Shown piece by piece: positions 3,257 to 23,463 of a DNA stretch of 30,013 bases. The notes under the pieces are model-generated. The model did no database searches, had not been told where the DNA came from, and saw nothing but the letters and a program-made list of their open reading frames with translations. Every line of letters starts with the position of its first letter. Position 1 is the first letter of the stretch. The stretch is from a virus (lineage: Duplodnaviria > Heunggongvirae > Uroviricota > Caudoviricetes): the IMG/VR virus record IMGVR_UViG_3300000358_000074. The stretch is one strand, 5' to 3'. A program made the position numbers and the translations under genes.

Positions 3257-3528
3257 GTATTCGTATTGAAATTGGCGAACGTTATGTCGTTACCAGTGAC
3301 AGCTTTCAGTTTATTCTCCACGAGAAAAAGAGAGCTGAAAGCGGTAAAAACGCCGGTCAGGAATGGCTGGCGGTGGTTGGTTATTACCCGAAATTAAGCC
3401 AGCTCGTTTCCGGCATGATGCATCACGATATTCTGACCGGAAGCGCAAAGTCTTTTGCTGATTTAAACGCGCAGGTTGAGCAACTCAGCAAGCGTTGTTC
3501 AGAGGCTTTTGGCTCATATGGCCGTTAA
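3253..3528 (+). CDS. Hypothetical early protein (P2 orf83 position)
   Basis: 91-aa ORF whose 3' end overlaps the start of A. Confidence 0.5.
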   Translation: MSIRIEIGERYVVTSDSFQFILHEKKRAESGKNAGQEWLAVVGYYPKLSQLVSGMMHHDILTGSAKSFADLNAQVEQLSKRCSEAFGSYGR

Positions 3529-5794
3529 AGCCTCCGGGCGTTTTGTCCCTCCGTCAGCATTTGCCGCAGGCACCGGTAAGGCGTTTACCGGTGCTTATGC
3601 ATGGAACGCGCCACGCGAGGCTGTCGGGCGCGAAAGACCCCTTACACGTGACGAGATGCGTCAGGTGCAAGGTGTTTTATCCACGATTAACCGCCTGCCT
3701 TACTTTTTGCGCTCGCTGTTTACTTCACGCTATGACTACATCCGGCGCAATAAAAGCCCGGTGCACGGGTTTTATTTCCTCACATCCACTTTTCAGCGTC
3801 GTTTATGGCCGCGCATTGAGCGTGTGAATCAGCGCCATGAAATGAACACCGACGCGTCGTTGCTGTTTCTGGCAGAGCGTGACCACTATGCGCGCCTGCC
3901 GGGAATGAATGACAAGGAGCTGAAAAAGTTTGCTGCCCGTATATCATCGCAGCTTTTCATGATGTATGAGGAACTCTGCGATGCCTGGGTGGATGCGCAT
4001 GGCGAAAAAGAATCGCTGTTTACGGATGAGGCGCAGGCTCACCTCTATGGTCATGTTGCTGGCGCTGCACGTGCTTTCAATATTTCCCCTCTCTACTGGA
4101 AAAAATACCGTAAAGGACAGATGACCACGAGGCAGGCATATTCTGCCATTGCCCGTCTGTTTAACGATGAGTGGTGGATTAGTCAGCTTCAAGGCCAGCG
4201 TATGCGCTGGCATGAGGCGTTACTGATTGCTGTCGGGGAGGTCAATAAAGACCGTTCTCCTTATGCCAGTAAACATGCCATTCGTGATGTGCGTGCACGC
4301 CGCCAGGCAAATCTGGAGTTTCTTAAATCGTGTGACCTTGAAAATAAGGAAACCGGCGAGCGCATTGACCTTATCAGTAAGGTGATGGGCAGTATTTCTA
4401 ATCCTGAAATTCGCCGGATGGAGCTGATGAACACCATTGCCGGTATTGAGCGTTACGCCGCTGCAGAGGGTGATGTGGGGATGTTTATCACGCTGACCGC
4501 GCCGTCAAAGTATCACCCGACACGTCAGGTCGGAAAAGGAGAAAGTAAAACCGTCCAGCTTAATCACGGCTGGAATGATGAGGCATTTAATCCAAAGGAT
4601 GCGCAGCGTTATCTCTGCCGTATCTGGAGCCTGGTGCGCACGGCATTCAAAGATAATGATTTACAGGTCTACGGTTTGCGAGTCGTCGAGCCACACCACG
4701 ACGGAACGCCGCACTGGCATATGATGCTTTTTTGTAATCCACGCCAGCGTAACCAGATTATCGAAATCATGCGTCGCTATGCGCTCAAAGAGGATGGCGA
4801 CGAAAGAGGAGCCGCGCGAAACCGTTTTCAGGCAAAACATCTTAACCGGGGCGGTGCTGCGGGATATATTGCTAAATACATCTCAAAAAATATCGACGGC
4901 TATGCACTGGATGGTCAGCTCGATAACGATACCGGCAGGCCGCTGAAAGACACTGCAGCGGCTGTTACCGCATGGGCGTCAACGTGGCGCATCCCACAAT
5001 TTAAAACGGTTGGTCTGCCGACAATGGGGGCTTACCGTGAACTACGCAAATTGCCTCGCGGCGTCAGCATTGCTGATGAGTTTGACGAGCGCGTCGAGGC
5101 TGCACGCGCCGCTGCAGACAGTGGTGATTTTGCGTTGTATATCAGCGCGCAGGGCGGGGCAAATGTCCCGCGCGATTGTCAGACTGTCAGGGTCGCCCGT
5201 AGCCCGTCGGATGACGTTAACGAGTACGAGGAAGAAGTCGAGAGAGTGGTCGGCATTTACGCGCCGCATCTCGGCGCGCGTCATATTCATATCACCAGAA
5301 CGACGGACTGGCGCATTGTGCCGAAAGTGCCGGTCGTTGAGCCTTTGACGTTAAAAAGCGGCATCGCCGCGCCTCGGAGTCCTGTCAATAACTGTGGAAA
5401 GCTCACCGGTGGTGATACTTCGTCACCGGCTCCCACGCCTTCTGAGCACGCCGCAGCAGTGCTTAATCTGGTTGATGACGGTGTTATCGAATGGAATGAC
5501 CCGGAGGTCGTGAGGGCGCTCAGAGGTGCATTAAAACACGAACTGAGAACACCAAATCGTCAGCAGAGAAACGGAAGCCCGTTAAAACCACATGAAATAG
5601 CGCCATCGGCCAGACTGACCCGGTCGGAACGAATGCAAATCACCCGTATCCGCGTTGACCTTGCTCAGAACGGTATCAGGCCTCAGCGATGGGAGCTTGA
5701 GGCGCTGGCGCGTGGCGCGACAGTAAATTATGACGGAATAAAATTCACGTATCCTGTCGCTGATGAGTGGCAGGGATTCACAATGGACCATTGA
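3518..5794 (+). CDS. A: Replication initiation endonuclease gpA (rolling-circle nickase)
   Basis: Large ORF (six-frame start 3476). Start set at the internal ATG 3518 (MAVKASGRFVPP...), which matches the P2 A N-terminus as recalled; contains HUH-like (PHWHMML) and YxxK-type (YIAKYISK) motifs of rolling-circle initiators. Confidence 0.9.
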   Translation: MAVKASGRFVPPSAFAAGTGKAFTGAYAWNAPREAVGRERPLTRDEMRQVQGVLSTINRLPYFLRSLFTSRYDYIRRNKSPVHGFYFLTSTFQRRLWPRIERVNQRHEMNTDASLLFLAERDHYARLPGMNDKELKKFAARISSQLFMMYEELCDAWVDAHGEKESLFTDEAQAHLYGHVAGAARAFNISPLYWKKYRKGQMTTRQAYSAIARLFNDEWWISQLQGQRMRWHEALLIAVGEVNKDRSPYASKHAIRDVRARRQANLEFLKSCDLENKETGERIDLISKVMGSISNPEIRRMELMNTIAGIERYAAAEGDVGMFITLTAPSKYHPTRQVGKGESKTVQLNHGWNDEAFNPKDAQRYLCRIWSLVRTAFKDNDLQVYGLRVVEPHHDGTPHWHMMLFCNPRQRNQIIEIMRRYALKEDGDERGAARNRFQAKHLNRGGAAGYIAKYISKNIDGYALDGQLDNDTGRPLKDTAAAVTAWASTWRIPQFKTVGLPTMGAYRELRKLPRGVSIADEFDERVEAARAAADSGDFALYISAQGGANVPRDCQTVRVARSPSDDVNEYEEEVERVVGIYAPHLGARHIHITRTTDWRIVPKVPVVEPLTLKSGIAAPRSPVNNCGKLTGGDTSSPAPTPSEHAAAVLNLVDDGVIEWNDPEVVRALRGALKHELRTPNRQQRNGSPLKPHEIAPSARLTRSERMQITRIRVDLAQNGIRPQRWELEALARGATVNYDGIKFTYPVADEWQGFTMDH

Positions 5795-5903
5795 TGATTA
5801 ACATGAAAGAATTATGGAGCTTGCTTATATCGTGTTATGTCAGTTTACTGGATACAGGGCAAGTGAATGCCCCTTTCCATGAATTAGATTAAAGGCTTGC
5901 AAA

Positions 5904-7235
5904 ATGAACAATAACAGTCAGAAAGCTTTGAGTAAGAAGAAAACCAAGAAAACCAAAAAGAAGTCGCTTACCCCTGAACAAAAAGCATTGCAAGCAGAAC
6001 AAGCAGCAAAAAAAGCGCAAATTATAGAGAATAGGCGCTCTATTACAGCTCATGCTATTAACCTTTTTCAGCAATATACAGCACTCCGTAAAAAAGGATT
6101 AGATAGTTCCACTGCTACTTTGCAAGCTTATGCTGATTATGAAAAAGTACATGGACATAAATTCCTTAGTTCTATCTCTATGTGGACAAAAATCAAAACT
6201 GAAGCAGGGATTCGGATCTATGATCGTGAGAGACAAGATAGTCGTAAATCGCTTAATCTTGCTAAGATCCCAACCCGTTTAGAGGCTAAGCGTAGTGTAC
6301 TGACACAGAATCAAAAGAAAGTACATAACCAGAATGCAAATACATTACGCTTAATCGGTGGCAAAAAGCTACCTGTAACATCTATGGGGCTTATTGTATG
6401 TCCTGTCTGCGAGATACATATAAAAGATAGTGCTATAGAGTGGCATTTACGACACAACCACGTAGATCATATAGATAACCCGTTTACTAACCCTATAGTA
6501 GCTCCGGTTGATACTTTAGAAGAGGCTGTAGAAATACGAGACCTACTAATTGGTGATAAAACACTTCCGATTAAATCTAGTACTATTAATATGGGGAGTG
6601 ACAAGAAAGATAAACGTTATTTTAATAAGCAAGTTTATCAAACGGCATTGCTAACAATGACACAATCAGAAGCGTGGAAACTCGCGACTGATGAAGAATC
6701 TAGTATGACTTTTTTAAGCAATCAGTACATAAGTCCATTAACATCACCGGAACCCAATAATGAAATATCTCTTATCATGGATGGAACAGCTATAGCCATT
6801 AATGAAGGTCTAACTAATCCTTTAAAAGCCGCAAACGATACCTGTGCTACAGGACGAACAGTCGAGGTTACTCATAAAGTCCGTCATGCTGGAGATCAAG
6901 CTGATTTCAAACGCCGTGTTTGGGATAACTTCAATGGCAGATGTGCTATTACTGGCTATCCATTGCCAGAGGGGATATTGGAAGCCGCACATATTGAAGC
7001 AATAACAGAAGCGGCAAATAATAACACATCTAATGGCCTGTTACTTGAAGTAAGTTTGCACCGAATGTTTGATAAAGGATTGATGGGGATTAATCCAGAG
7101 GACTTAACGGTTCATTTCTCTATTAATTGTATCCACAAAACTATGTTTGAGGGTAAAACTCTACAACCACATCATGTAGAACTTGATGCTGACAAGTTGA
7201 TGACAAAATGGAAAAAGTTCAATGATAAGCGTTAA
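5904..7235 (+). CDS. Cargo protein with C-terminal HNH-type nuclease motif, lysine-rich N-terminus and a C2H2-like zinc finger; candidate anti-phage defence effector
   Basis: 443 aa. The C-terminus carries CAITG...LEAAHI...NGLLL...LHRMFDKGLMGI, the hallmark spacing of HNH (HNH_2-like) endonucleases. N-terminus is KKKTKKTKKKS; mid-region has CPVCEIHIKDSAIEWHLRHNH. The gene is AT-rich and sits where P2 has orf91/tin/old. Confidence 0.75.
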   Translation: MNNNSQKALSKKKTKKTKKKSLTPEQKALQAEQAAKKAQIIENRRSITAHAINLFQQYTALRKKGLDSSTATLQAYADYEKVHGHKFLSSISMWTKIKTEAGIRIYDRERQDSRKSLNLAKIPTRLEAKRSVLTQNQKKVHNQNANTLRLIGGKKLPVTSMGLIVCPVCEIHIKDSAIEWHLRHNHVDHIDNPFTNPIVAPVDTLEEAVEIRDLLIGDKTLPIKSSTINMGSDKKDKRYFNKQVYQTALLTMTQSEAWKLATDEESSMTFLSNQYISPLTSPEPNNEISLIMDGTAIAINEGLTNPLKAANDTCATGRTVEVTHKVRHAGDQADFKRRVWDNFNGRCAITGYPLPEGILEAAHIEAITEAANNNTSNGLLLEVSLHRMFDKGLMGINPEDLTVHFSINCIHKTMFEGKTLQPHHVELDADKLMTKWKKFNDKR

Positions 7236-7326
7236 CATGACTTCTTCTGGCGCAGCGAGGCATTAGATTTAATTATGTATTATGATTTAATTTGGGGCGT
7301 GATTTGTTATATGGGGAATAGATTAT

Positions 7327-7746
7327 ATGGTGACGCTTGATACTGTTTATTGGAAATTTGGTTATGCTTCGGAAGCAGCTCAATTACTGGAGACTGAGTT
7401 GATAAATATTATCACTGAGTATGATATGAGTCAGGGGAAAGATATACAGTCGCTGAAAAAACAGTTTTTAGAAATGGATAAATACACGCTGGGTAGATTG
7501 AATTACGCACTGAAGTCTAGGATGGTGGAGGATGCTGATACACTGGAGCGTGTGTCTGATGCTCTTAAAGCCAGAAACTACTTAGCACATGACTTTTATC
7601 GCAAACATGCTGAAGGTAAATTCACTCCGGAAGGAAGGCAGAGAATGCTTGCCGACTTAAATAGTGTACATCACATAATTTTTGAGGCTTACCGCAAGGT
7701 TCTGCAACTAAGCGACATTGAAATTCCTCCTTTAGAGCATGATTAA
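7327..7746 (+). CDS. Hypothetical protein, co-oriented partner of the HNH cargo gene
   Basis: 139-aa ORF 91 bp downstream of the HNH gene, same strand, same AT-rich composition, no motif I recognise; mildly acidic. Confidence 0.6.
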   Translation: MVTLDTVYWKFGYASEAAQLLETELINIITEYDMSQGKDIQSLKKQFLEMDKYTLGRLNYALKSRMVEDADTLERVSDALKARNYLAHDFYRKHAEGKFTPEGRQRMLADLNSVHHIIFEAYRKVLQLSDIEIPPLEHD

Positions 7747-7761
7747 ATCTTGCATGCATTA

Positions 7762-7800
7762 GATGCATTGGTTTGCATGCATCATTCGTTATTTTCATTT
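7762..7800 (+). terminator. Putative terminator / ATGCAT palindrome cluster after the cargo operon
   Basis: Inverted repeat gatgcat(8 nt)atgcatc at 7762-7783 followed by T-rich cattcgttattttcatttt; additional TGCATGCA palindromes at 7751-7758. Confidence 0.35.
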
Positions 7801-7874
7801 TCGAGTGCCGTCAGTGTCGGCATGGTTTTGACGGATTCATACATGTGCATTAAAACCTCCCCATGAAGCGGGCG

Positions 7875-7893
7875 GGCGAGGCGGGGAAAGCAC
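7875..7893. other. cos: cos cohesive-end site (P2-type 19-nt sequence)
   Basis: GGCGAGGCGGGGAAAGCAC at 7875-7893, which is the P2 cohesive-end sequence as I recall it, at the expected place between the old-locus and Q; flanking GC-rich region has repeated gcgtgatg motifs. Confidence 0.6.
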
Positions 7894-8034
7894 TGCGCGC
7901 TGGCGGTGGTGCTGATTTTATTTTTTCAGCGTCTGAGCGCGTCGTGATGGCGTTTAGATTGTGCGCCGGGGCGTTGGTTTGTCTGCGGGCTGTTTTGCGC
8001 GGTGGTGAGCGTGTGAGGGCGTGATGACGGGTTG

Positions 8035-8057
8035 TAAAAAAGCCGCCCGCAGGCGGC
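8035..8057 (-). terminator. Rho-independent terminator downstream of Q
   Basis: On the minus strand GCCGCC-TGCG-GGCGGC followed by TTTTTT, immediately after the Q stop. Confidence 0.55.
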
Positions 8058-8062
8058 GATGT

Positions 8063-9097
8063 TCAGCCGTTGTCAGTGTCCAGTGAGTAGTTTTTAAAGC
8101 GGATGACCTCCTGACCGAGCCAGCCGTTTATCTCGCGGATCCTGTCCTGTAACGGGATAAGCTCATTGCGGACAAAGACCTTTGCCACTTTCTCAATATC
8201 TCCCAGTGACCCGACGTTCTCCGGCTTGCCGCCCATCAACTGAAAGGGGATGCGGTGTGCGTCCAGCAGGTCTGCGGCGCTGGCTTTTTTGATATTAAAA
8301 AAATCGTCCTTCGTCGCCACTTCACTGAGCGGGATAATTTTAATGCCGTCGGCTTTCCCTTGCGGGGCATAGAGAAACAGATTTTTAAAGTTGTTGCGGC
8401 CTTTCGACTTCACCATGTTTTCGCGGAGCATTTCGATATCGTTGCGATCCTGCACGGCATCGGTGACGTACATGATGTATCCGGCATGTGCGCCGTTTTC
8501 GTAATACTTGCGGCGGAACAGCGTGGCCGACTCATTCAGCCAGGCAGAGTTAAGGGCGCTGAGATATTCCGGCAGGCCGTACAGCTCCTGATTAATATCC
8601 GGCTCCAGCAGGTGAAACACGGAGCCGGGCGCGAAAGGTGTCGGCTCATGGAAGGACGGCACCCACCAGTAAACATCCTCTTCCACGCCACGGCGGGTAT
8701 ATTTTGCCGGTGAGGTTTCCAGTCTGATGACCTTACCGGTGGTGCTGTAACGCTTTTCCAGAAACGCATTACCGAACACCAGAAAATCCAGCACAAAGCG
8801 GCTGAAATCCTGCTGGGAAAGCCACGGATGCGGGATAAATGTCGAGGCCAGAATATTACGTTTGACGTAAATCGGTGAGCTGTGATGCACGGCAGCACGC
8901 AGGCTTTTTGCCAGACCGGTAAAGCTGACCGGTGGCTCATACCATCTGCCGTTACTGATGCACTCGACGTAATCCAGAATGTCACGGCGGTCGAGTACCG
9001 GCACCGGCTCACCAAAGGTGAATGCCTCCATTTTCGGGGCGCTGGCGGTCATTTTTTTTGCCGCAGGTTGCGGTGTTTTCCCTTTTTTCTTGCTCAT
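8063..9097 (-). CDS. Q: Portal protein gpQ
   Basis: 344 aa, matching P2 Q length; position adjacent to cos and transcribed away from the capsid genes, as in P2. Confidence 0.9.
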   Translation of the reverse strand: MSKKKGKTPQPAAKKMTASAPKMEAFTFGEPVPVLDRRDILDYVECISNGRWYEPPVSFTGLAKSLRAAVHHSSPIYVKRNILASTFIPHPWLSQQDFSRFVLDFLVFGNAFLEKRYSTTGKVIRLETSPAKYTRRGVEEDVYWWVPSFHEPTPFAPGSVFHLLEPDINQELYGLPEYLSALNSAWLNESATLFRRKYYENGAHAGYIMYVTDAVQDRNDIEMLRENMVKSKGRNNFKNLFLYAPQGKADGIKIIPLSEVATKDDFFNIKKASAADLLDAHRIPFQLMGGKPENVGSLGDIEKVAKVFVRNELIPLQDRIREINGWLGQEVIRFKNYSLDTDNG

Positions 9098-10869
9098 CAG
9101 TAAAACTCCAGAATGGTGGATGTCAGCGGGGTGCTGATACCGGCGGTGAGTGGCTCATTTAACAGGGCGTGCATGGTCGCCCAGGCGAGGTCGGCGTGGC
9201 TGGCTTCCTCGCTGCGGCTGGCCTCATAGGTGGCACTGCGTCCGCTGCTGGTCATGGTCTTGCGGATAGCCATAAACGAGCTGGTGATGTCGGTGGCGCT
9301 GACGTCGTATTCCAGACAGCCACGGCGGATGACGTCTTTTGCCTTGAGCACCATTGCGGTTTTCATTTCCGGCGTGTAGCGGATGTCGCGCGCGGCGGGA
9401 TAGAACGAGCGCACGAGCTGGAACACGCCGACACCGAGGCCGGTGGCATCAATACCGATGTATTCGACGTTGTATTTTTCGGTGAGTTTGCGGATGGATT
9501 CAGCCTGGGTGGCAAAGTCCATGCCTTTCCACTGGTGACGCTCAAGTATTCTGAATTTGCCACCGGCCACCACCGGCGGTGCCAGCACCACGCATCCGGC
9601 ACTGTCGCCACGGTGTGACGGGTCGTAACCAATCCAGACCGGGCGGGAGCCGAACGGATTGGCGGCAAACGGCGCATAGTCTTCCCATTCTTCCAGCGTG
9701 TCGACCATGCAGCGTTGCAGCTCCTCGAACGGGAACACCGACGCCTTGTCGTCAACAAATTCACACATGAACAGGTTTTTAAAATCGTCGGCGCTGTTTT
9801 CGCGTTTGAGCTGCTCAATGTCGAACAGCGTGCAGCCGCCTTTCAGGGCGTCCTCAATGGTGACAATCTGCCGCCACTGACCGTCCGCACAGAGAAGACC
9901 ACCGGAAAGGGCGTTATGACTGACGTCGATTTCCACGCGTTCGGCGGCGCTGGCGCGTCCCCGGTTGAACAGTTCACCCGACCAGAACGGATAGGCGTCG
10001 TGCGCCAGCGTGGACGGGGTGGAGAAATAGGTCGAGCGCAGGTGACTCTGTGAGGCCATACCTGATGCCACCTTACGCAGTACCTGAAAATTCGGGATCC
10101 AGAAAATCTCATCGACGTACAGGTCGCCGTTATGACTCTGTGCGGTGTTGGAGTTGGTGCCGAGAAAAATCAGTTTTGCGCCGTTATTGCCCAGGACAAT
10201 CGGGTCACCGGTCAGGTCAACGTCAACCAGACGGGCAAAGGCGATGATGTATTCACGGAATACATACGCCTGCGTTTTACTGGCCGACAGAAAAATCTGG
10301 TTATGACCGGTTTTCAGGGCGCGCAGCAGCGCCTCGCGGGAAAAATAAAACGTTGCGCCAATCTGACGGGATTTCAGGATATCGCGGATGCGGTGCTCAA
10401 GCCCGGCGCGATACCAGTGCAACTGATAGTCGAAAGACTGCTCAAAGAAAATCTGCTCCAGCTTTTCGATGGCCTCGTCACTGAAAAAATTCTTTTTCGG
10501 TTTGCGCCGCCCGCCTTTGTTGCGGTTAGCGACGTTCGGATTAAGGTCTGCCTCGTTGCCGGTCTGGCTGTAACGATTTACCCGTGCCAGTCGTTCAATC
10601 TGGCGTCCCAGCAGGTCAATTTCCTTGAAGTCACCGCCGGTTTTCTGCGGTTTGATGATGAGCTGGGTCAGTCGCGCTTCCAGACTCATTTCGACACGGC
10701 TGATGGGGGCAACGCTGTCCCAGCCGTCGCGCTGTTTCCAGCTCTGCACCGTCGGGCGTTTCATCTGCAACATGGCGGCAATCTGCGGCACGGAAAACCC
10801 CTGCCAGTACAGCAGCGCCGCCTGACGACGCGGGTCGTGTAAAAGAGTGGTGTCTGTGGTGATGGTCAT
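9097..10869 (-). CDS. P: Terminase large (ATPase) subunit gpP
   Basis: Six-frame ORF 600 aa; start set at the internal ATG 10869 (MTITTDTT...), which has a GGCGAGG Shine-Dalgarno and gives 590 aa as in P2. Stop overlaps the Q start by 1 nt. Confidence 0.9.
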   Translation of the reverse strand: MTITTDTTLLHDPRRQAALLYWQGFSVPQIAAMLQMKRPTVQSWKQRDGWDSVAPISRVEMSLEARLTQLIIKPQKTGGDFKEIDLLGRQIERLARVNRYSQTGNEADLNPNVANRNKGGRRKPKKNFFSDEAIEKLEQIFFEQSFDYQLHWYRAGLEHRIRDILKSRQIGATFYFSREALLRALKTGHNQIFLSASKTQAYVFREYIIAFARLVDVDLTGDPIVLGNNGAKLIFLGTNSNTAQSHNGDLYVDEIFWIPNFQVLRKVASGMASQSHLRSTYFSTPSTLAHDAYPFWSGELFNRGRASAAERVEIDVSHNALSGGLLCADGQWRQIVTIEDALKGGCTLFDIEQLKRENSADDFKNLFMCEFVDDKASVFPFEELQRCMVDTLEEWEDYAPFAANPFGSRPVWIGYDPSHRGDSAGCVVLAPPVVAGGKFRILERHQWKGMDFATQAESIRKLTEKYNVEYIGIDATGLGVGVFQLVRSFYPAARDIRYTPEMKTAMVLKAKDVIRRGCLEYDVSATDITSSFMAIRKTMTSSGRSATYEASRSEEASHADLAWATMHALLNEPLTAGISTPLTSTILEFY

Positions 10870-11042
10870 GAATACCTCGCCGTGATGAATACACGGCAAG
10901 GCTACTGAGTCGCGCCCCGCGATTCGCTAAGGTGCTGTTGTGTCAGTGATAAGCCATCCGGGACTGATGGCGGAGGATGCGCATCGTCGGGAAACTGATG
11001 CCGACATGTGACTCCTCTAATCACTATTCAGGACTCCTGACA

Positions 11043-19874: not shown

Positions 19875-21394
19875 CAGTGAAATACTACGCCATTCTGACT
19901 AATCAGGGCGCAGCACGGCTGGCTAACGCGACGATGCTCGGCAGTAAGCTGAATCTGACGCAAATGGCCGTTGGTGATGCGAATGGTGTCTTACCGACAC
20001 CAGACCCGGCACAGACAAAACTGATTAACCAGAAACGCATCGCGCCGCTGAATCTTCTGAGTGTTGACCCGAACAATCAGAGCCAGATTATTGCGGAGCA
20101 AATCATCCCTGAAAACGAGGGCGGATTCTGGATCCGTGAGATTGGACTTTATGATGATGAAGGCGTACTCATTGCGGTGGCGAACTGCCCGGAAACGTAC
20201 AAACCGCAGTTGCAGGAAGGCAGTGGTCGTACCCAGACTATCCGCATGATTCTGGTTGTCACGAACACCGAAGCCATCACGCTGAAAATCGACCCGGCTG
20301 TGGTACTGGCAACACGTAAATATGTGGATGACAAAATTTCTGAGCACGAACAGTCACGACGCCACCCGGACGCCTCGCTGACCGCAAAAGGTTTTACTCA
20401 GTTAAGCAGTGCAACTAACAGTACATCTGAAACACTGGCCGCAACACCGAAAGCGGTAAAGGCTGCATATGACCTGGCTAACGGGAAATATACCGCTCAG
20501 GATGCGACTACGGCACGAAAAGGCCTTGTTAAACTCAGTAGCGCCACAAACAGCACGTCTGAAACACTGGCTGCAACGCCAAAAGCGGTCAAGGCGGCGT
20601 ATGACCTGGCTAACGGGAAATATACCGCCCAGAACGCCACCACGACGCAAAAAGGGCTTGTTCAGCTCAGTAGTGCAACCAACAGCACATCTGAAACACT
20701 GGCTGCAACGCCAAAAGCGGTAAAGGCTGCATACGACCTGGCTAATGGAAGACAACCGGCAAACGCCATACTCACTGCTCTGGCAGGGCTTGCTACAGCG
20801 GCAGATAAACTCCCTTATTTTACAGGGGTAGATCGTGCCGCGTTAACTGCACTGACAAGTGTTGGTCGTGCAATTCTTAGTAAGCCCAGCACACAGGGAG
20901 TTCTTGATTATCTTGGTTTGGGAGAAGGCTCTGCATTGCCTGTTGGTGTACCTGTTCCGTGGCCCTCCGCAACCCCGCCAACGGGCTGGCTGAAATGCAA
21001 CGGCGCTGCCTTTGATAAGGTGAAATATCCCCATCTTGCTACAGCATATCCATCAGGGAAACTACCTGATCTCCGTGGTGAGTTTATTCGTGGATGGGAT
21101 GACAGGCGTGGTATTGATGCAGGACGTGCTTTATTGAGCATTCAGACTGGGATGCTGGAAAAACACCGCCATATTGTTGTTGCCAACGATGGGTATGATT
21201 CAAAAGAGGAATGGGAACTGGCGACAATCTTCAGAAGAGCATATACGCAAGGCCGGGGGCTTGATGCTGCCGATGCCGGAGGAACTCTGATTCCATCACC
21301 AACGCTACATACACGAGGGAGTATTGGTAACACAGGTGGGAGCGAAACCCGTCCACGAAATATTGCATTTAACTATATCGTGAGAGCTGCATAA
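19871..21394 (+). CDS. H: Tail fibre protein gpH
   Basis: 507 aa. N-terminus is P2 H-like; internal tandem 44-aa repeats; C-terminus has a collar-like PTGWLKCNGAAF...YP.L...LPDLRGEFIRG motif. Confidence 0.85.
   Translation: MTVKYYAILTNQGAARLANATMLGSKLNLTQMAVGDANGVLPTPDPAQTKLINQKRIAPLNLLSVDPNNQSQIIAEQIIPENEGGFWIREIGLYDDEGVLIAVANCPETYKPQLQEGSGRTQTIRMILVVTNTEAITLKIDPAVVLATRKYVDDKISEHEQSRRHPDASLTAKGFTQLSSATNSTSETLAATPKAVKAAYDLANGKYTAQDATTARKGLVKLSSATNSTSETLAATPKAVKAAYDLANGKYTAQNATTTQKGLVQLSSATNSTSETLAATPKAVKAAYDLANGRQPANAILTALAGLATAADKLPYFTGVDRAALTALTSVGRAILSKPSTQGVLDYLGLGEGSALPVGVPVPWPSATPPTGWLKCNGAAFDKVKYPHLATAYPSGKLPDLRGEFIRGWDDRRGIDAGRALLSIQTGMLEKHRHIVVANDGYDSKEEWELATIFRRAYTQGRGLDAADAGGTLIPSPTLHTRGSIGNTGGSETRPRNIAFNYIVRAA
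20405..20750 (+). repeat. Tandem 132-bp (44-codon) repeats, about 2.6 copies, inside gpH
   Basis: Units begin at 20405, 20537 and 20669 (SSATNSTSETLAATPKAVKAAYDLANGKYTAQ...); the copies differ mainly at synonymous positions. Confidence 0.85.
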
Positions 21395-21996
21395 TGGATA
21401 AAGCCGTATTAAATAGCGAACTTATTGCCACGAAGGCGGGGAATATTACCGTCTATAACTATGATGGTGAAACACGGGAATATATTTCCACTTCAAATGA
21501 ATATCTTGCCGTTGGTGTCGGTATCCCGGCATATTCCTGTTTAGATGCTCCTGGCACATATAAGGCGGGTTATGCTATCTGCCGTTCTATGGATTTAAAA
21601 TCATGGGAATATGTGTCAGACCATCGTGGTGAAATTGTCTATAGCACCGAAACAGGTGAATCAAAAGAAATCAAAACTCCGGGTGATTACCCTGAAAATG
21701 CAACCACTATCGCCCCGTCAACGCCATACGATAAATGGGATGGTGAGAAATGGGTGACGGATACCGAGGCACAGCATAGCGCCGCAGTAGATGCAGCAGA
21801 AGCACAGCGCCAGTCACTGATTGATGCAGCAATGGCTTCCATTAGTCTGATTCAGCTGAAATTACAGGCCGGGCGGAAACTGACGCAGGCAGAAACAACC
21901 CGGCTTAACGCTGTGCTGGATTACATTGACGCGGTGACGGCAACAGATACCAGCACCGCGCCTGATGTTATCTGGCCTGAACTGCCGGAGGCGTAG
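21394..21996 (+). CDS. G: Tail fibre assembly chaperone gpG
   Basis: 200 aa immediately after H with ATGA overlap. Confidence 0.8.
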   Translation: MDKAVLNSELIATKAGNITVYNYDGETREYISTSNEYLAVGVGIPAYSCLDAPGTYKAGYAICRSMDLKSWEYVSDHRGEIVYSTETGESKEIKTPGDYPENATTIAPSTPYDKWDGEKWVTDTEAQHSAAVDAAEAQRQSLIDAAMASISLIQLKLQAGRKLTQAETTRLNAVLDYIDAVTATDTSTAPDVIWPELPEA

Positions 21997-22006
21997 GCCA
22001 TTCAAT

Positions 22007-22049
22007 ATCTGGAGCACTGGAAATTTCGACAAGTTCCAGTGCTCCAGAT
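22007..22049. other. Perfect 16-bp-stem hairpin in the G-FI intergenic region
   Basis: atctggagcactggaa-(atttcgacaag)-ttccagtgctccagat; no T-run on either side. Confidence 0.5.
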
Positions 22050-22272
22050 AATCGACTGTGTGGGAACAGGCAGGACGATTGCTGGCTGCGAGGGAATCAC
22101 GTCAACGTGTGGCGCTGATTTTTGATATTGACCTGTCCACGCTCTATAAAAAATTCGCCTCATCAGCGACAAAGAATAAATTGTGCCACCCATCAGCCAA
22201 CCGGGACAAATAGCCTGACATCTCCGGCACACATGAAAATACCACTCACCCATTAACCACGGAGTTAAACGG

Positions 22273-23463
22273 ATGAGTGACTATCATCACGGCGTGCAGG
22301 TGTTGGAGATTAACGACGGCACCCGCGTCATTTCCACCGTATCCACTGCCATTGTCGGCATGGTCTGCACGGCCAGCGATGCGGATGCGGAAACCTTCCC
22401 CCTCAATAAACCTGTGCTGATTACCAATGTGCAGAGCGCAATTGCAAAGGCCGGTAAAAAAGGCACGCTGGCGGCATCGTTGCAGGCCATCGCTGACCAG
22501 TCAAAACCGGTCACCGTTGTCGTGCGTGTGGAAGACGGCACCGGCGAAGACGAGGAAACGAAACTTGCGCAGACCGTTTCCAATATCATCGGCACCACCG
22601 ACGAAAACGGCCAGTACACCGGACTGAAAGCCCTGCTGGCGGCGGAGTCGGTAACCGGTGTTAAACCGCGTATTCTTGGTGTGCCGGGGCTGGATACCAA
22701 AGAGGTGGCTGTTGCACTGGCATCAGTCTGTCAGAAGCTGCGCGCTTTCGGATATATCAGCGCATGGGGCTGTAAGACCATTTCCGAGGTGAAAGCCTAC
22801 CGCCAGAATTTCAGCCAGCGTGAACTGATGGTTATCTGGCCGGATTTCCTCGCATGGGATACGGTCACCAGTACCACCGCCACCGCGTATGCCACCGCCC
22901 GTGCGCTGGGTCTGCGCGCTAAAATCGACCAGGAGCAGGGCTGGCATAAAACGCTGTCCAACGTCGGGGTAAACGGTGTTACCGGCATCAGCGCATCTGT
23001 ATTCTGGGATTTGCAGGAGTCCGGCACCGATGCTGACCTGCTTAACGAGTCAGGCGTCACTACGCTGATTCGCCGCGACGGTTTCCGATTCTGGGGTAAC
23101 CGTACCTGCTCTGATGACCCGCTGTTCCTCTTTGAAAACTACACCCGCACCGCGCAGGTGCTGGCCGATACGATGGCTGAGGCGCACATGTGGGCGGTGG
23201 ACAAGCCCATCACCGCAACGCTGATTCGCGACATCGTTGACGGCATCAATGCCAAATTCCGAGAGCTGAAAACAAACGGCTATATCGTGGATGCGACCTG
23301 CTGGTTCAGCGAAGAATCCAACGATGCGGAAACCCTCAAGGCCGGAAAACTGTATATCGACTACGACTATACACCGGTGCCTCCTCTTGAAAATCTGACC
23401 CTGCGCCAGCGTATTACCGATAAATACCTGGCAAATCTGGTCACCTCGGTTAACAGCAATTAA
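22273..23463 (+). CDS. FI: Tail sheath protein gpFI
   Basis: 396 aa, P2 FI length and position. Confidence 0.9.
   Translation: MSDYHHGVQVLEINDGTRVISTVSTAIVGMVCTASDADAETFPLNKPVLITNVQSAIAKAGKKGTLAASLQAIADQSKPVTVVVRVEDGTGEDEETKLAQTVSNIIGTTDENGQYTGLKALLAAESVTGVKPRILGVPGLDTKEVAVALASVCQKLRAFGYISAWGCKTISEVKAYRQNFSQRELMVIWPDFLAWDTVTSTTATAYATARALGLRAKIDQEQGWHKTLSNVGVNGVTGISASVFWDLQESGTDADLLNESGVTTLIRRDGFRFWGNRTCSDDPLFLFENYTRTAQVLADTMAEAHMWAVDKPITATLIRDIVDGINAKFRELKTNGYIVDATCWFSEESNDAETLKAGKLYIDYDYTPVPPLENLTLRQRITDKYLANLVTSVNSN

What the first reader, a model, noticed from the sequence alone, without database searches (positions are those of the whole stretch)
5795..7850. Two-gene AT-rich cargo island replacing orf91/tin/old at the P2 A-cos hotspot: candidate undescribed anti-phage system
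In P2-like phages the segment between A and cos/Q is a known variable hotspot that carries defence genes (tin and old in P2 itself). Here it instead holds two co-oriented genes, a 443-aa HNH-motif nuclease and a 139-aa protein of unknown function. The segment is visibly AT-rich against the GC-rich phage backbone, with its own likely promoter region (5795-5903) and a palindrome-rich terminator region (7750-7800). I recognise neither protein as Old, Tin or any other named defence protein, so the pair may be an uncharacterised defence module.
Basis: partly seen in the sequence, partly recalled or inferred. Interest (0 to 1): 0.88.

Follow-up and report, generated by a model that had tools for sequence, protein, structure and literature searches.

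The report
Two separate cargo genes, P2 hotspot
The AT-rich segment between gene A and cos of this P2-like prophage is real, but it holds two unrelated single-gene cassettes placed side by side, a zinc-finger HNH DNA nuclease and a small helical protein that may be an RNase; both are plausible but untested anti-phage genes, and they are not one two-gene system.

Summary
Window 5795-7850 has 38.3% GC against 53.7% elsewhere. It holds a 443-aa HNH_2 protein (5904-7235) and a 139-aa protein (7327-7746) between gene A and cos (7875-7893) of a P2-like prophage.

The "two-gene system" reading is not supported:
- DNA homology breaks sharply at 7247/7250.
- The HNH cassette (5816-7247, with 88 bp of leader) recurs alone in a Citrobacter island beside Gabija, a Pectobacterium mobile element, a Salmonella ICE, an E. 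coli island beside a PARIS-like pair and a Proteus-type prophage.
- The 139-aa gene recurs in P2-like hotspots alone or with other partners. It is gp38 in phage PSP3. It belongs to a family of about 1,900 clusters with no conserved neighbour.
- Synonymous divergence from one E. coli relative differs 4.6-fold between the two genes.

The HNH protein has a coiled coil, a C2H2 zinc finger and an intact HNH_2 motif whose nearest solved relative is the type IV enzyme VcaM4I. Rousset et al. 2022 already list it as untested P2-hotspot system 85. The small protein has an invariant RNxLxH motif placed as in HEPN RNases, but homology evidence is below threshold. Defence roles are inferred from context only.

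Interest is moderate: two candidate single-gene defences, not a new system.

The parts
3476..5794 (+). P2 gene A (replication endonuclease); left border of the hotspot
   Evidence: 772-aa ORF. Annotated 'replication endonuclease' in matching E. coli prophages. Homology with other P2-like phages ends at about 5783-5807.
5816..7247 (+). Cassette 1: the HNH gene with its 88-bp upstream leader, mobile as a unit
   Evidence: blastn at 83-86% identity to the Pectobacterium IME locus L094 and the Citrobacter island locus L090 spans window 5816/5821 to 7243/7247 and nothing beyond. GC is 0.381.
5904..7235 (+). ORF1, 443 aa: Lys-rich N-terminus, long helices (aa 24-143), C2H2 zinc finger (C166, C169, H181, H186), conserved helical segment (aa 242-275), C-terminal HNH_2 nuclease domain
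   Evidence: ORF. Pfam HNH_2 at aa 347-397. phrog_20585 at E = 8.5e-178, function unknown. Conserved columns. C2H2 profile matches to solved zinc fingers at E = 6.6e-4 to 2.5e-3 and Pfam zf-C2H2_4 at E = 4e-4 in homologue P0043. AF2 secondary structure. dN/dS is 0.22-0.25 against E. coli alleles.
6942..7094 (+). HNH_2 catalytic core (aa 347-397); H363, N377 and H386 are invariant
   Evidence: Pfam match. Invariant columns R327, Q332, C347, L359-E365, N377, G378, H386, D390 across 38 homologues. The profile aligns LEAAHIE / NG(L)LL / LfD(a)G with the VcaM4I (6YEX) HNH domain at E = 1.3e-5.
6508..6526 (+). Scar of an in-frame deletion of about 183 bp relative to the 502-507-aa homologues, between imperfect direct repeats
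   Evidence: Two blastn segments against L094/L090 overlap on window 6508-6526. The repeat sequences are shown. The gap of about 59 aa is in the protein alignment.
7250..7326 (+). Start of cassette 2: conserved leader of ORF2, shared between loci with different upstream cargo
   Evidence: Homology with the ST131-type locus L001, Salmonella L096 and phage PSP3 L114 begins at 7250-7252. Alignment. No consensus sigma-70 site on the + strand.
7327..7746 (+). ORF2, 139 aa: all-helical small protein, candidate minimal HEPN-like RNase; homologue of PSP3 gp38
   Evidence: ORF. No Pfam, PADLOC or NCBIfam family. phrog_12893 at E = 1.4e-81, function unknown. AF2 pLDDT 90.6, five helices. 74% identical to PSP3 gp38. 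dN/dS is 0.11-0.31.
7573..7590 (+). Codons R83-N84-Y-L86-A-H88: invariant RNxLxH motif (fits the HEPN Rx4H pattern)
   Evidence: R83, N84, L86, H88 and F90 are invariant in 43 sequences down to 26% identity. The motif lies in the C-terminal part of helix 70-93, before the loop to the last helix. That is where Anantharaman et al. 2013 place Rx4-6H (PMC3710099).
7762..7783 (+). Hairpin followed by a T-rich tail; likely terminator of ORF2
   Evidence: Terminator-like site GATGCATTGGTTTGCATGCATC + ATTCGTTATT.
7875..7893 (.). P2 cos cohesive-end sequence; right border of the hotspot
   Evidence: Exact GGCGAGGCGGGGAAAGCAC. That this 19-mer is the P2 cohesive end is from my own knowledge.
8063..9097 (-). 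Portal gene Q (context)
   Evidence: 344-aa ORF. Annotated 'phage portal protein' in matching prophages.

Best explanation
The segment is a mosaic of two independently mobile single-gene morons stacked in the known A-cos accessory-gene hotspot of a P2-like prophage. Cassette 1 (5816-7247) encodes a solitary DNA nuclease. Its long N-terminal helices probably mediate oligomerisation. A C2H2 zinc finger and a conserved helical segment probably recognise nucleic acid. The C-terminal HNH_2 domain is of the kind used by modification-dependent (type IV) restriction enzymes and would cut DNA. With no methyltransferase partner, it most likely spares the host either because it recognises a feature of invading DNA or because it is kept inactive until infection, and so it would exclude superinfecting phages. 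Cassette 2 (7250 to about 7800) encodes a 139-aa helical protein. It most likely acts as a dimer that brings two RNxLxH motifs together, as HEPN RNases do, and cleaves RNA when triggered by infection; this is also a single-gene function. What is shown: the composition, the boundaries, the independence of the two genes, the intact HNH motif, purifying selection and the association with mobile elements and defence loci. What is inferred: nuclease and RNase activity, targets, triggers and any anti-phage phenotype.
For: Independence of the two genes: (1) blastn breakpoints fall at 7247/7250. (2) dS against the same E. coli prophage (L002) is 0.073 for the HNH gene and 0.335 for ORF2. (3) Among 5,426 complete E. 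coli genomes, the HNH gene is in 12 and ORF2 in 31: 12 with the HNH, 18 with a hyp+hyp+DUF2971 module and 1 with only DUF3850 plus a small ORF. (4) ORF2 is the sole cargo in IMG/VR locus L121 and has other partners in L116-L124, Salmonella, Klebsiella, Kosakonia and PSP3. (5) There is no conserved neighbour family in 73 distant loci. (6) HNH homologues are solitary in other elements.
Defence context: (1) The hotspot is documented, and many P2 hotspots hold more than one system (PMC9122126; PMC9519451). (2) HNH homologues sit beside Gabija-type genes (AAA_15/21 + OLD-like TOPRIM, UvrD) in Citrobacter and beside an AAA_15/21 + DUF4435 pair in E. coli. (3) Neighbours of distant ORF2 homologues include McrBC, a type I methyltransferase, a CBASS cyclase and phospholipase, HamA, DrmA, PD-Lambda-3_B and ParE, mixed with housekeeping genes.
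HNH chemistry: Pfam HNH_2 is above threshold. H363, N377 and H386 are invariant. The nearest solved chain is VcaM4I, an EVE-HNH type IV enzyme.
Confidence: 0.6

Rival explanations
1. The two genes form one obligate two-component anti-phage system, for example a sensor plus an effector or a nuclease plus its regulator.
For: They are adjacent, co-oriented and 91 bp apart, with similar GC of 0.381 and 0.385. Every P2-like locus found with this HNH also has ORF2 downstream: 12 E. coli genomes and 5 IMG/VR contigs.
Against: The homology breakpoint lies exactly between them. Synonymous divergence differs 4.6-fold. The HNH occurs without ORF2 in six other contexts, and ORF2 occurs without the HNH in at least eight. 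Rousset et al. also list the HNH as a single-gene entry. The constant pairing inside P2 follows if the HNH cassette was inserted once, upstream of a resident ORF2.
Confidence: 0.07
2. The HNH gene is a selfish free-standing homing endonuclease. It cuts HNH-less relatives near its insertion site and spreads by repair, giving the host no defence benefit.
For: It is a free-standing nuclease gene with sharp cassette borders between conserved phage genes. It carries zinc-finger-type DNA-binding modules. The extra ~59-aa segment of the longer homologues looks AP2-like by eye, and AP2-like modules are known in homing endonucleases (my own knowledge).
Against: The same cassette, at 83-86% nucleotide identity, lies in unrelated flanks: a Citrobacter chromosomal island, a Pectobacterium IME and a lambdoid prophage next to lysis genes. 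More distant relatives lie in an ICE and in E. coli and Klebsiella islands. That is not the pattern of site-specific homing. The domain is HNH_2, whose closest solved relative is a type IV restriction enzyme, not the HNH_3/NUMOD type. Pfam did not detect AP2 in P0032.
Confidence: 0.12
3. ORF2 is not a HEPN RNase. It is a helical protein with another role, such as a metal-binding enzyme built from its conserved Glu, His and Asp residues, a regulator, or an anti-defence or phage-fitness factor native to P2-like phages.
For: No significant structural or profile match to HEPN was found. Many invariant residues lie outside the motif (E16, Q19, E22, E24, H94, D110, H115) and could form a different site. 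The gene usually holds the same position just before cos in diverged P2-like phages of several genera, like a semi-conserved phage gene. Many distant homologues lie among housekeeping genes.
Against: The RNxLxH motif, with Asn after Arg, is the only element invariant to 26% identity together with F90, L111 and A121. It sits where HEPN motifs sit. Two different HEPN Pfam models give sub-threshold matches centred on it. Tandem and HEPN-fused variants exist.
Confidence: 0.35
4. The HNH protein is a DNA-packaging accessory that assists terminase at cos, like the HNH proteins of HK97-type phages.
For: It lies about 640 bp from cos and close to the portal and terminase genes. HNH proteins that assist terminase are known in other phages (my own knowledge).
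Against: Most P2-like phages lack it: it is in 12 of the 5,426 complete E. coli genomes, while 2,131 match the query's P2 flanks. It occurs in non-phage elements. It is 443 aa with an HNH_2 domain, unlike the small packaging HNH proteins.
Confidence: 0.03

Closest known systems
Entry 85 ('HNH_2') of the P2-hotspot catalogue of Rousset et al. 2022 (Cell Host Microbe; PMC9122126, Table S5B)
   Same: Essentially the same protein (the listed sequence differs at a few residues), in the same locus, listed as a single gene with 42 occurrences and the comment 'Likely a nuclease'.
   Different: It is a catalogue entry only. It is not among the systems the paper reports as tested. No domain analysis beyond Pfam, and no note of the zinc finger, the internal deletion or the non-P2 homes.
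Type IV (modification-dependent) HNH restriction endonucleases such as VcaM4I (EVE-HNH, PDB 6YEX; PMC7897488)
   Same: A solitary nuclease without a methyltransferase. The C-terminal HNH_2 domain shares the catalytic motif (profile match E = 1.3e-5). NCBIfam gives a sub-threshold hit to the phosphorothioate-dependent HNH enzyme model.
   Different: No PUA, EVE, SRA, SBD or winged-helix reader domain is detectable. The N-terminal two thirds are instead long helices, a C2H2 zinc finger and a helical segment. Dependence on DNA modification is untested.
P2 Old and Tin, the exclusion genes at this locus in P2 itself
   Same: Same hotspot, same prophage-moron logic, and independent single genes stacked side by side.
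   Different: No sequence relationship. PADLOC and Pfam find no Old (AAA/TOPRIM) or Tin signature in either protein.
HEPN superfamily RNases (HepT toxins, RiboL-PSP-HEPN, MAE_28990-type, Abi HEPN proteins; Anantharaman et al. 2013, PMC3710099)
   Same: A small all-helical domain with an invariant R-N-x3-H at the end of the third core helix. Tandem and fused variants suggest dimer function. It occurs on mobile elements and in some defence loci.
   Different: No above-threshold profile or structure match. No MNT or other antitoxin partner and no conserved neighbour. No Ex3[KR] motif was seen.
gp38 (orf38) of Salmonella phage PSP3
   Same: Orthologue of ORF2, 74% identical over the full length, the last gene before cos.
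   Different: PSP3 has the small gp37 ORF directly upstream and no HNH. gp38 has no assigned function in the record.

Membership tests
HNH_2 nuclease domain (Pfam PF13391) | Profile match above the curated threshold | tested here: met
   E = 1.1e-10, 41.6 bits against a cut-off of 21, aa 347-397 over the whole 66-position profile. The same holds in all homologues scanned.
HNH_2 nuclease domain (Pfam PF13391) | Catalytic His...Asn...His of the beta-beta-alpha-metal motif present | tested here: met
   H363, N377 and H386 (with E360, D390) are invariant in 38 homologues and align with the VcaM4I HNH motif.
Type IV modification-dependent restriction endonuclease | A modified-base reader domain (PUA/EVE/SRA, SBD, winged helix or similar) fused to the nuclease | tested here: not met
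   No such Pfam or NCBIfam domain at E <= 1. The N-terminal part is helices plus a C2H2 zinc finger. A novel reader cannot be excluded.
Type IV modification-dependent restriction endonuclease | Cleavage depends on modified DNA | not testable with these tools
   Needs enzyme assays or plating of phages with and without modified DNA.
Restriction-modification system | A cognate methyltransferase encoded alongside | tested here: not met
   Only two ORFs lie between A and cos, and neither is a methyltransferase. None is adjacent in the other HNH loci.
   Breakpoint at 7247/7250. Each gene is found without the other in many contexts. dS is 0.073 against 0.335.
HEPN superfamily | Rx4-6H motif with a polar residue (N, D or H) after R, at the end of core helix 3 | tested here: met
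   R83-N84-x-L86-x-H88 is invariant in 43 sequences. It lies in the C-terminal part of helix 70-93, before the loop to helix 101-127. Criterion from PMC3710099.
HEPN superfamily | Four-helix up-down bundle, often with an insert between helices 2 and 3 | tested here: inconclusive
HEPN superfamily | Significant profile similarity to a recognised HEPN family | tested here: inconclusive
   HEPN_RiboL-PSP in 4 of 43 members, best E = 4.9e-4 at 20.5 bits against a cut-off of 28.4. HEPN_MAE_28990 at E = 0.053. In the four hits whose coordinates were checked, the stretch covers the motif. hhalign against a HepT-like alignment gave 1% probability. The window protein itself has no hit.
HEPN superfamily | Metal-independent RNase activity that depends on R and H | not testable with these tools
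   Needs biochemistry or mutant phenotypes.
HEPN-MNT or other toxin-antitoxin pair | A conserved adjacent antitoxin gene | tested here: not met
   No neighbour family is shared by more than 3 of 73 loci, and those three are Thalassospira housekeeping synteny. The small gp37-like ORF seen upstream in some P2-like phages is absent here and degraded in ST131 loci.
Homing endonuclease gene | Presence/absence polymorphism at one homologous site, with the target in the empty allele | tested here: not met
   Close copies of the cassette lie in unrelated flanking contexts. Cleavage specificity was not testable.
Named defence families in PADLOC-DB v2 (including PD-T4/T7/Lambda and the Rousset systems) | Full-length match to a system protein model | tested here: not met
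   ORF1 gives only domain-level hits to two generic 'HNH' models (profile positions 135-233 of 286 and 143-227 of 282). ORF2 gives none at E <= 1.

The most novel reading that the evidence does not exclude
ORF2 defines a large, uncatalogued family (about 1,900 clusters at 50% identity, no Pfam or NCBIfam model) of minimal stand-alone HEPN-like RNases that act as single-gene, antitoxin-less abortive-infection or exclusion factors on phages and chromosomes across many phyla. Independently, the coiled-coil, C2H2 zinc-finger, HNH_2 protein would be a new architecture of single-polypeptide defence nuclease that recognises invading DNA through a zinc finger instead of a PUA-type reader.
Probability: 0.25. 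Interest if true: 0.6.

Novelty: new variant of a known kind. Interest (0 to 1): 0.4.

Why it matters
The result corrects a tempting reading. Adjacency inside a phage hotspot does not make a system, and here the junction between two cassettes can be placed to within three bases. It also gives two concrete, cheap test candidates. One is a nuclease architecture that recurs beside Gabija-like and PARIS-like loci on several kinds of mobile element but has no validated function. The other is a very widespread small protein family without any database model. Its invariant RNxLxH motif makes an RNase hypothesis directly testable with two point mutants. If either protects against phages, it adds a single-gene defence to the P2 hotspot repertoire, where 19% of P2-like elements still show no recognisable defence gene (bioRxiv 10.64898/2026.02.27.708500).

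Tried and rejected
1. Pfam, PADLOC, NCBIfam and PHROGs on both proteins gave only the HNH_2 domain and two PHROGs of unknown function.
3. A profile of the ORF2 family against PDB sequences gave no HEPN hit.
4. hhalign of the ORF2 family against a HepT-like alignment, built from the C-terminal domain of the fusion protein P0160, gave 1% probability. This weakens the HEPN claim but does not exclude it.
5. The AF2 model of the HNH protein was too poor (pLDDT 57.5) for a fold search, so none was run.
6. The ~59-aa segment missing from the window's HNH looked AP2-like by eye, but Pfam did not detect AP2 in P0032, so no claim is made.
7. Consensus promoter scans found nothing above chance in either leader.
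8. Literature searches for the accession numbers, the PHROG ids, 'HNH_2' and HNH + C2H2 + anti-phage found no functional study. Motif searches found no similar protein in the held supplementary files of Vassallo et al. 2022 or in the tested-systems table (Table S2) of Rousset et al. 2022.
9. I considered the small gp37-like ORF as an antitoxin for ORF2 and rejected it, because it is absent here and in Kosakonia and is degraded in ST131 loci.
Full report
WHAT IS THERE. The window is a P2-like (Peduovirus) prophage. About 83-87% of window 1-25000 aligns at about 96.5% identity to P2-like phage records. The gene order is int, C, cox, B..., A (3476-5794, +), then the segment in question, then Q (8063-9097, -) and P (9097-10899, -). 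The P2 cohesive-end sequence GGCGAGGCGGGGAAAGCAC lies at 7875-7893. Between the A stop codon and cos there are exactly two sizeable ORFs, both on the + strand: ORF1 (5904-7235, 443 aa) and ORF2 (7327-7746, 139 aa). GC of 5795-7850 is 0.383 against 0.537 for the rest of the window. None of 477 other windows of equal length falls below 0.441. A hairpin with a T-rich tail follows ORF2 at 7762-7783. Only the 'promoter' at 5795-5903 lacks support from a consensus scan.

THE TWO GENES ARE SEPARATE CASSETTES. Four lines of evidence agree.

(1) Homology breakpoints. ORF1 with 88 bp of upstream sequence and 8-12 bp after its stop codon (window 5816/5821 to 7243/7247) is 83-86% identical in DNA to loci in Pectobacterium (L094) and Citrobacter (L090), and nothing outside that interval matches. 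Homology to ORF2-bearing loci that lack the HNH (E. coli ST131-type L001, Salmonella L096, phage PSP3 L114) begins at 7250-7252. The junction is thus defined to within about three bases.

(2) Divergence. Against the same E. coli prophage (L002), synonymous divergence is 0.073 for ORF1 but 0.335 for ORF2. In this window ORF2 is closer to the ST131-type allele (90.6% nucleotide identity) than to the allele linked to the HNH in other E. coli (87.7%). The two genes have different histories.

(3) ORF1 without ORF2. Close homologues (67-85% aa identity, 502-507 aa) are solitary in two places. One is a Citrobacter chromosomal island next to a resolvase and a Gabija-like pair (AAA_15/21 with OLD-like TOPRIM, plus a UvrD helicase). 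The other is a Pectobacterium integrative mobilisable element with three integrases and a relaxase. A 79%-identical copy lies beside lysis genes in a Proteus/Morganella-type prophage. More distant family members (about 25-37% identity) are solitary cargo in a Klebsiella aerogenes island, in a Salmonella ICE between transfer genes, and in an E. coli island beside an AAA_15/21 + DUF4435 pair (the PARIS-type domain pair).

(4) ORF2 without ORF1. Among 5,426 complete E. coli genomes, ORF1 is in 12 and ORF2 in 31. Eighteen of those 31 carry a different upstream module (two hypothetical proteins plus DUF2971), and one has only DUF3850 and a small ORF. In other P2-like or 186-like prophages ORF2 sits in the same hotspot in several arrangements:
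- after DinI and a 243-aa protein (Salmonella);
- almost alone (Klebsiella aerogenes);
- before a GmrSD_N protein (Kosakonia);
- as gp38 after tumA, tumB and gp37 (phage PSP3);
- as the sole cargo (IMG/VR locus L121).

Beyond enterobacteria, a genome scan returned 80 loci (the cap) in Acidobacteriota, Proteobacteria, Planctomycetota and others. Clustering the three genes on either side in 73 of them found no family shared by more than three loci, and those three are housekeeping synteny within Thalassospira.

The constant ORF1-ORF2 adjacency seen inside P2-like phages follows if the HNH cassette was inserted once, upstream of a resident ORF2. Rousset et al. note that many P2 hotspots hold more than one system.

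ORF1, THE NUCLEASE. Pfam finds one domain, HNH_2, at aa 347-397 (E = 1.1e-10, above threshold). In an alignment of 38 homologues the motif residues H363, N377 and H386 and their surroundings (LEAAHIE, NNNTSNG, LHR.FD) are invariant. A family profile searched against PDB sequences finds VcaM4I (6YEX), an EVE-HNH modification-dependent restriction enzyme, as the only nuclease hit (E = 1.3e-5, HNH domain only). That identity was confirmed in PMC7897488. NCBIfam gives a sub-threshold match to the phosphorothioate-dependent HNH enzyme model.

Upstream of the nuclease domain the family conserves a C-x2-C-x11-H-x4-H element (C166, C169, H181, H186). This element matches solved C2H2 zinc fingers (E = 6.6e-4 to 2.5e-3) and Pfam zf-C2H2 models in homologues. 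AF2 models it as a beta-hairpin plus helix. AF2 is confident only for long N-terminal helices (aa 24-143), the finger and a helical segment (aa 242-275). The overall model is poor (pLDDT 57.5), so no fold search was attempted.

The window's allele, like all the E. coli P2 alleles, lacks about 59 aa found in the 502-507-aa relatives. The DNA shows an in-frame deletion of about 183 bp between imperfect direct repeats at window 6508-6526. The gene is nevertheless under purifying selection (dN/dS 0.22-0.25).

No methyltransferase is present and no modified-base reader domain is detectable. The protein works like a solitary restriction-type nuclease, but it fails the membership test for type IV enzymes on the reader domain.

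ORF2, THE SMALL HELICAL PROTEIN. No Pfam, NCBIfam or PADLOC model matches it, and its PHROG (12893) has no function. An exhaustive profile search finds 1,941 clusters (50% identity) at E <= 0.001. Nearly all of the listed best hits are single-domain proteins of about 100-190 aa. AF2 gives a confident all-helical model (pLDDT 90.6).

Across 43 sequences down to 26% identity, the invariant columns are R83, N84, L86, H88, F90, L111 and A121. That gives an R-N-x-L-x-H motif. It lies in the C-terminal part of the third long helix, before the loop to the last helix. This is the position and form (a polar residue after Arg) that Anantharaman et al. 2013 give for the HEPN Rx4-6H RNase motif.

Supporting hints:
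- Four of 43 members give sub-threshold Pfam matches to HEPN_RiboL-PSP (best E = 4.9e-4), and one matches HEPN_MAE_28990. In the four hits whose coordinates were checked, the matched stretch covers the motif.
- One family member is a tandem duplication and another is fused to a HepT-like domain.
- Two loci carry adjacent paralogues. This fits the dimeric active sites of HEPN enzymes.

Against:
- Foldseek finds nothing significant.
- A PDB sequence-profile search finds no HEPN.
- hhalign against a HepT-like alignment gives 1% probability.

I therefore rate 'HEPN-like RNase' at roughly even odds. The main alternative is a helical protein with another active site or a non-enzymatic role. The gene is under purifying selection (dN/dS 0.11-0.31). 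There is no conserved antitoxin-like partner. A small gp37-like ORF precedes it in PSP3 and several prophages but is absent here and decayed in ST131 loci.

IS IT DEFENCE? The locus is the documented P2 defence hotspot (PMC9122126; PMC9519451). ORF1 relatives lie beside Gabija-like and PARIS-like genes and in cargo slots of several element types. Among 142 neighbours of distant ORF2 homologues there are McrBC, a type I methyltransferase, a CBASS cyclase and phospholipase, HamA, DrmA, PD-Lambda-3_B, MzaA, ParE and other HEPN proteins, but also many housekeeping genes. I did not compute a background rate, so this is suggestive only. No experimental test of either gene was found. The HNH protein is entry 85 in Table S5B of Rousset et al. 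2022 (42 occurrences, 'Likely a nuclease'), and it is not among the systems they report testing.

VERDICT. The segment is foreign cargo in the defence hotspot and matches no named defence protein. It is two stacked single-gene cassettes and not a two-gene system, and one of the two is already catalogued. Both genes are reasonable single-gene defence candidates from known superfamilies with unusual architecture (C2H2 finger + HNH_2) or no family model (ORF2). Novelty: new variant of a known kind. Interest: 0.4. A specialist would expect unknown cargo here. The value lies in the clean dissection and in two directly testable candidates.

Noticed in passing
window 6508-6526 (ORF1 codons about 202-208): The window's HNH allele carries an in-frame deletion of about 183 bp relative to the 502-507-aa homologues in Citrobacter, Pectobacterium and Enterobacter. 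The deletion lies between imperfect direct repeats (GTTGAT.CT.T.GAAGA). The lost ~59 aa look AP2-like by eye, but Pfam does not confirm this.
   Followed up: partly
L114 4249-4458 (PSP3 gp37); L003 5659-5865; L096 4660-4869; L102 4627-4863; remnant in L001 about 4790-4950: A conserved small ORF of 68-78 aa (MHRLPGEIPQHKTKSIKLMAIVHRLQ...PPPRRP) sits directly upstream of ORF2 in PSP3 and several P2-like prophages. It is absent in this window and in Kosakonia, and is N-terminally decayed in ST131 loci. Its function and its relation to ORF2 are unknown.
   Followed up: partly
P0252 (331 aa), P0160 (279 aa); loci L018 5390-6456 and L046 5534-6465: The ORF2 family includes a tandem-duplicated protein with two RN.LAH motifs. 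It also includes a fusion to a HepT-like domain (Pfam E = 1.5e-5) that appears to have lost its own R/H motif. Two loci carry two adjacent paralogous genes.
   Followed up: partly
window 5600-8000 against L085/L115 (IMGVR_UViG_2703718839_000009): An IMG/VR viral contig is identical to the window, with 0 mismatches in 2401 bases across the whole hotspot. The window probably comes from the same or a near-identical prophage.
   Followed up: no
window 21997-22272: The second P2 accessory hotspot (the Z/fun position, between the putative tail-fibre assembly gene G, 21394-21996, and the tail sheath gene FI, 22273-23463) is only a 276-bp gap here and carries no cargo gene. The G and FI assignments are from P2 gene order, not from a search.
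   Followed up: no
window 7863-8024: A 53-aa GC-rich ORF spans the cos site. Some P2-like records annotate a 'hypothetical protein' under the corresponding sequence. It is most likely not a gene.
   Followed up: no
L001 2174-4673 (E. coli ST131-type P2-like prophage): The alternative cargo upstream of ORF2 in 18 complete E. coli genomes is a three-gene block: a 380-aa protein with no Pfam hit, a 158-aa protein with only weak matches to membrane-protein families, and a 243-aa DUF2971 protein. The arrangement appears in the locus list (Table S5A) of Rousset et al. No function is known.
   Followed up: no
L089-L093 3658-4827 (Citrobacter island): A 389-aa protein without any Pfam match lies 173 bp upstream of the Citrobacter HNH homologue, co-oriented, in all five places read. 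It is not present in the Pectobacterium or P2 contexts. It might be a local partner or another separate cargo gene.
   Followed up: no
window 8042-8057 (minus strand): A strong GC-rich hairpin with a T run (GCCGCCTGCGGGCGGC TTTTTT) lies just downstream of portal gene Q. It is probably the terminator of the Q-P operon.
   Followed up: no
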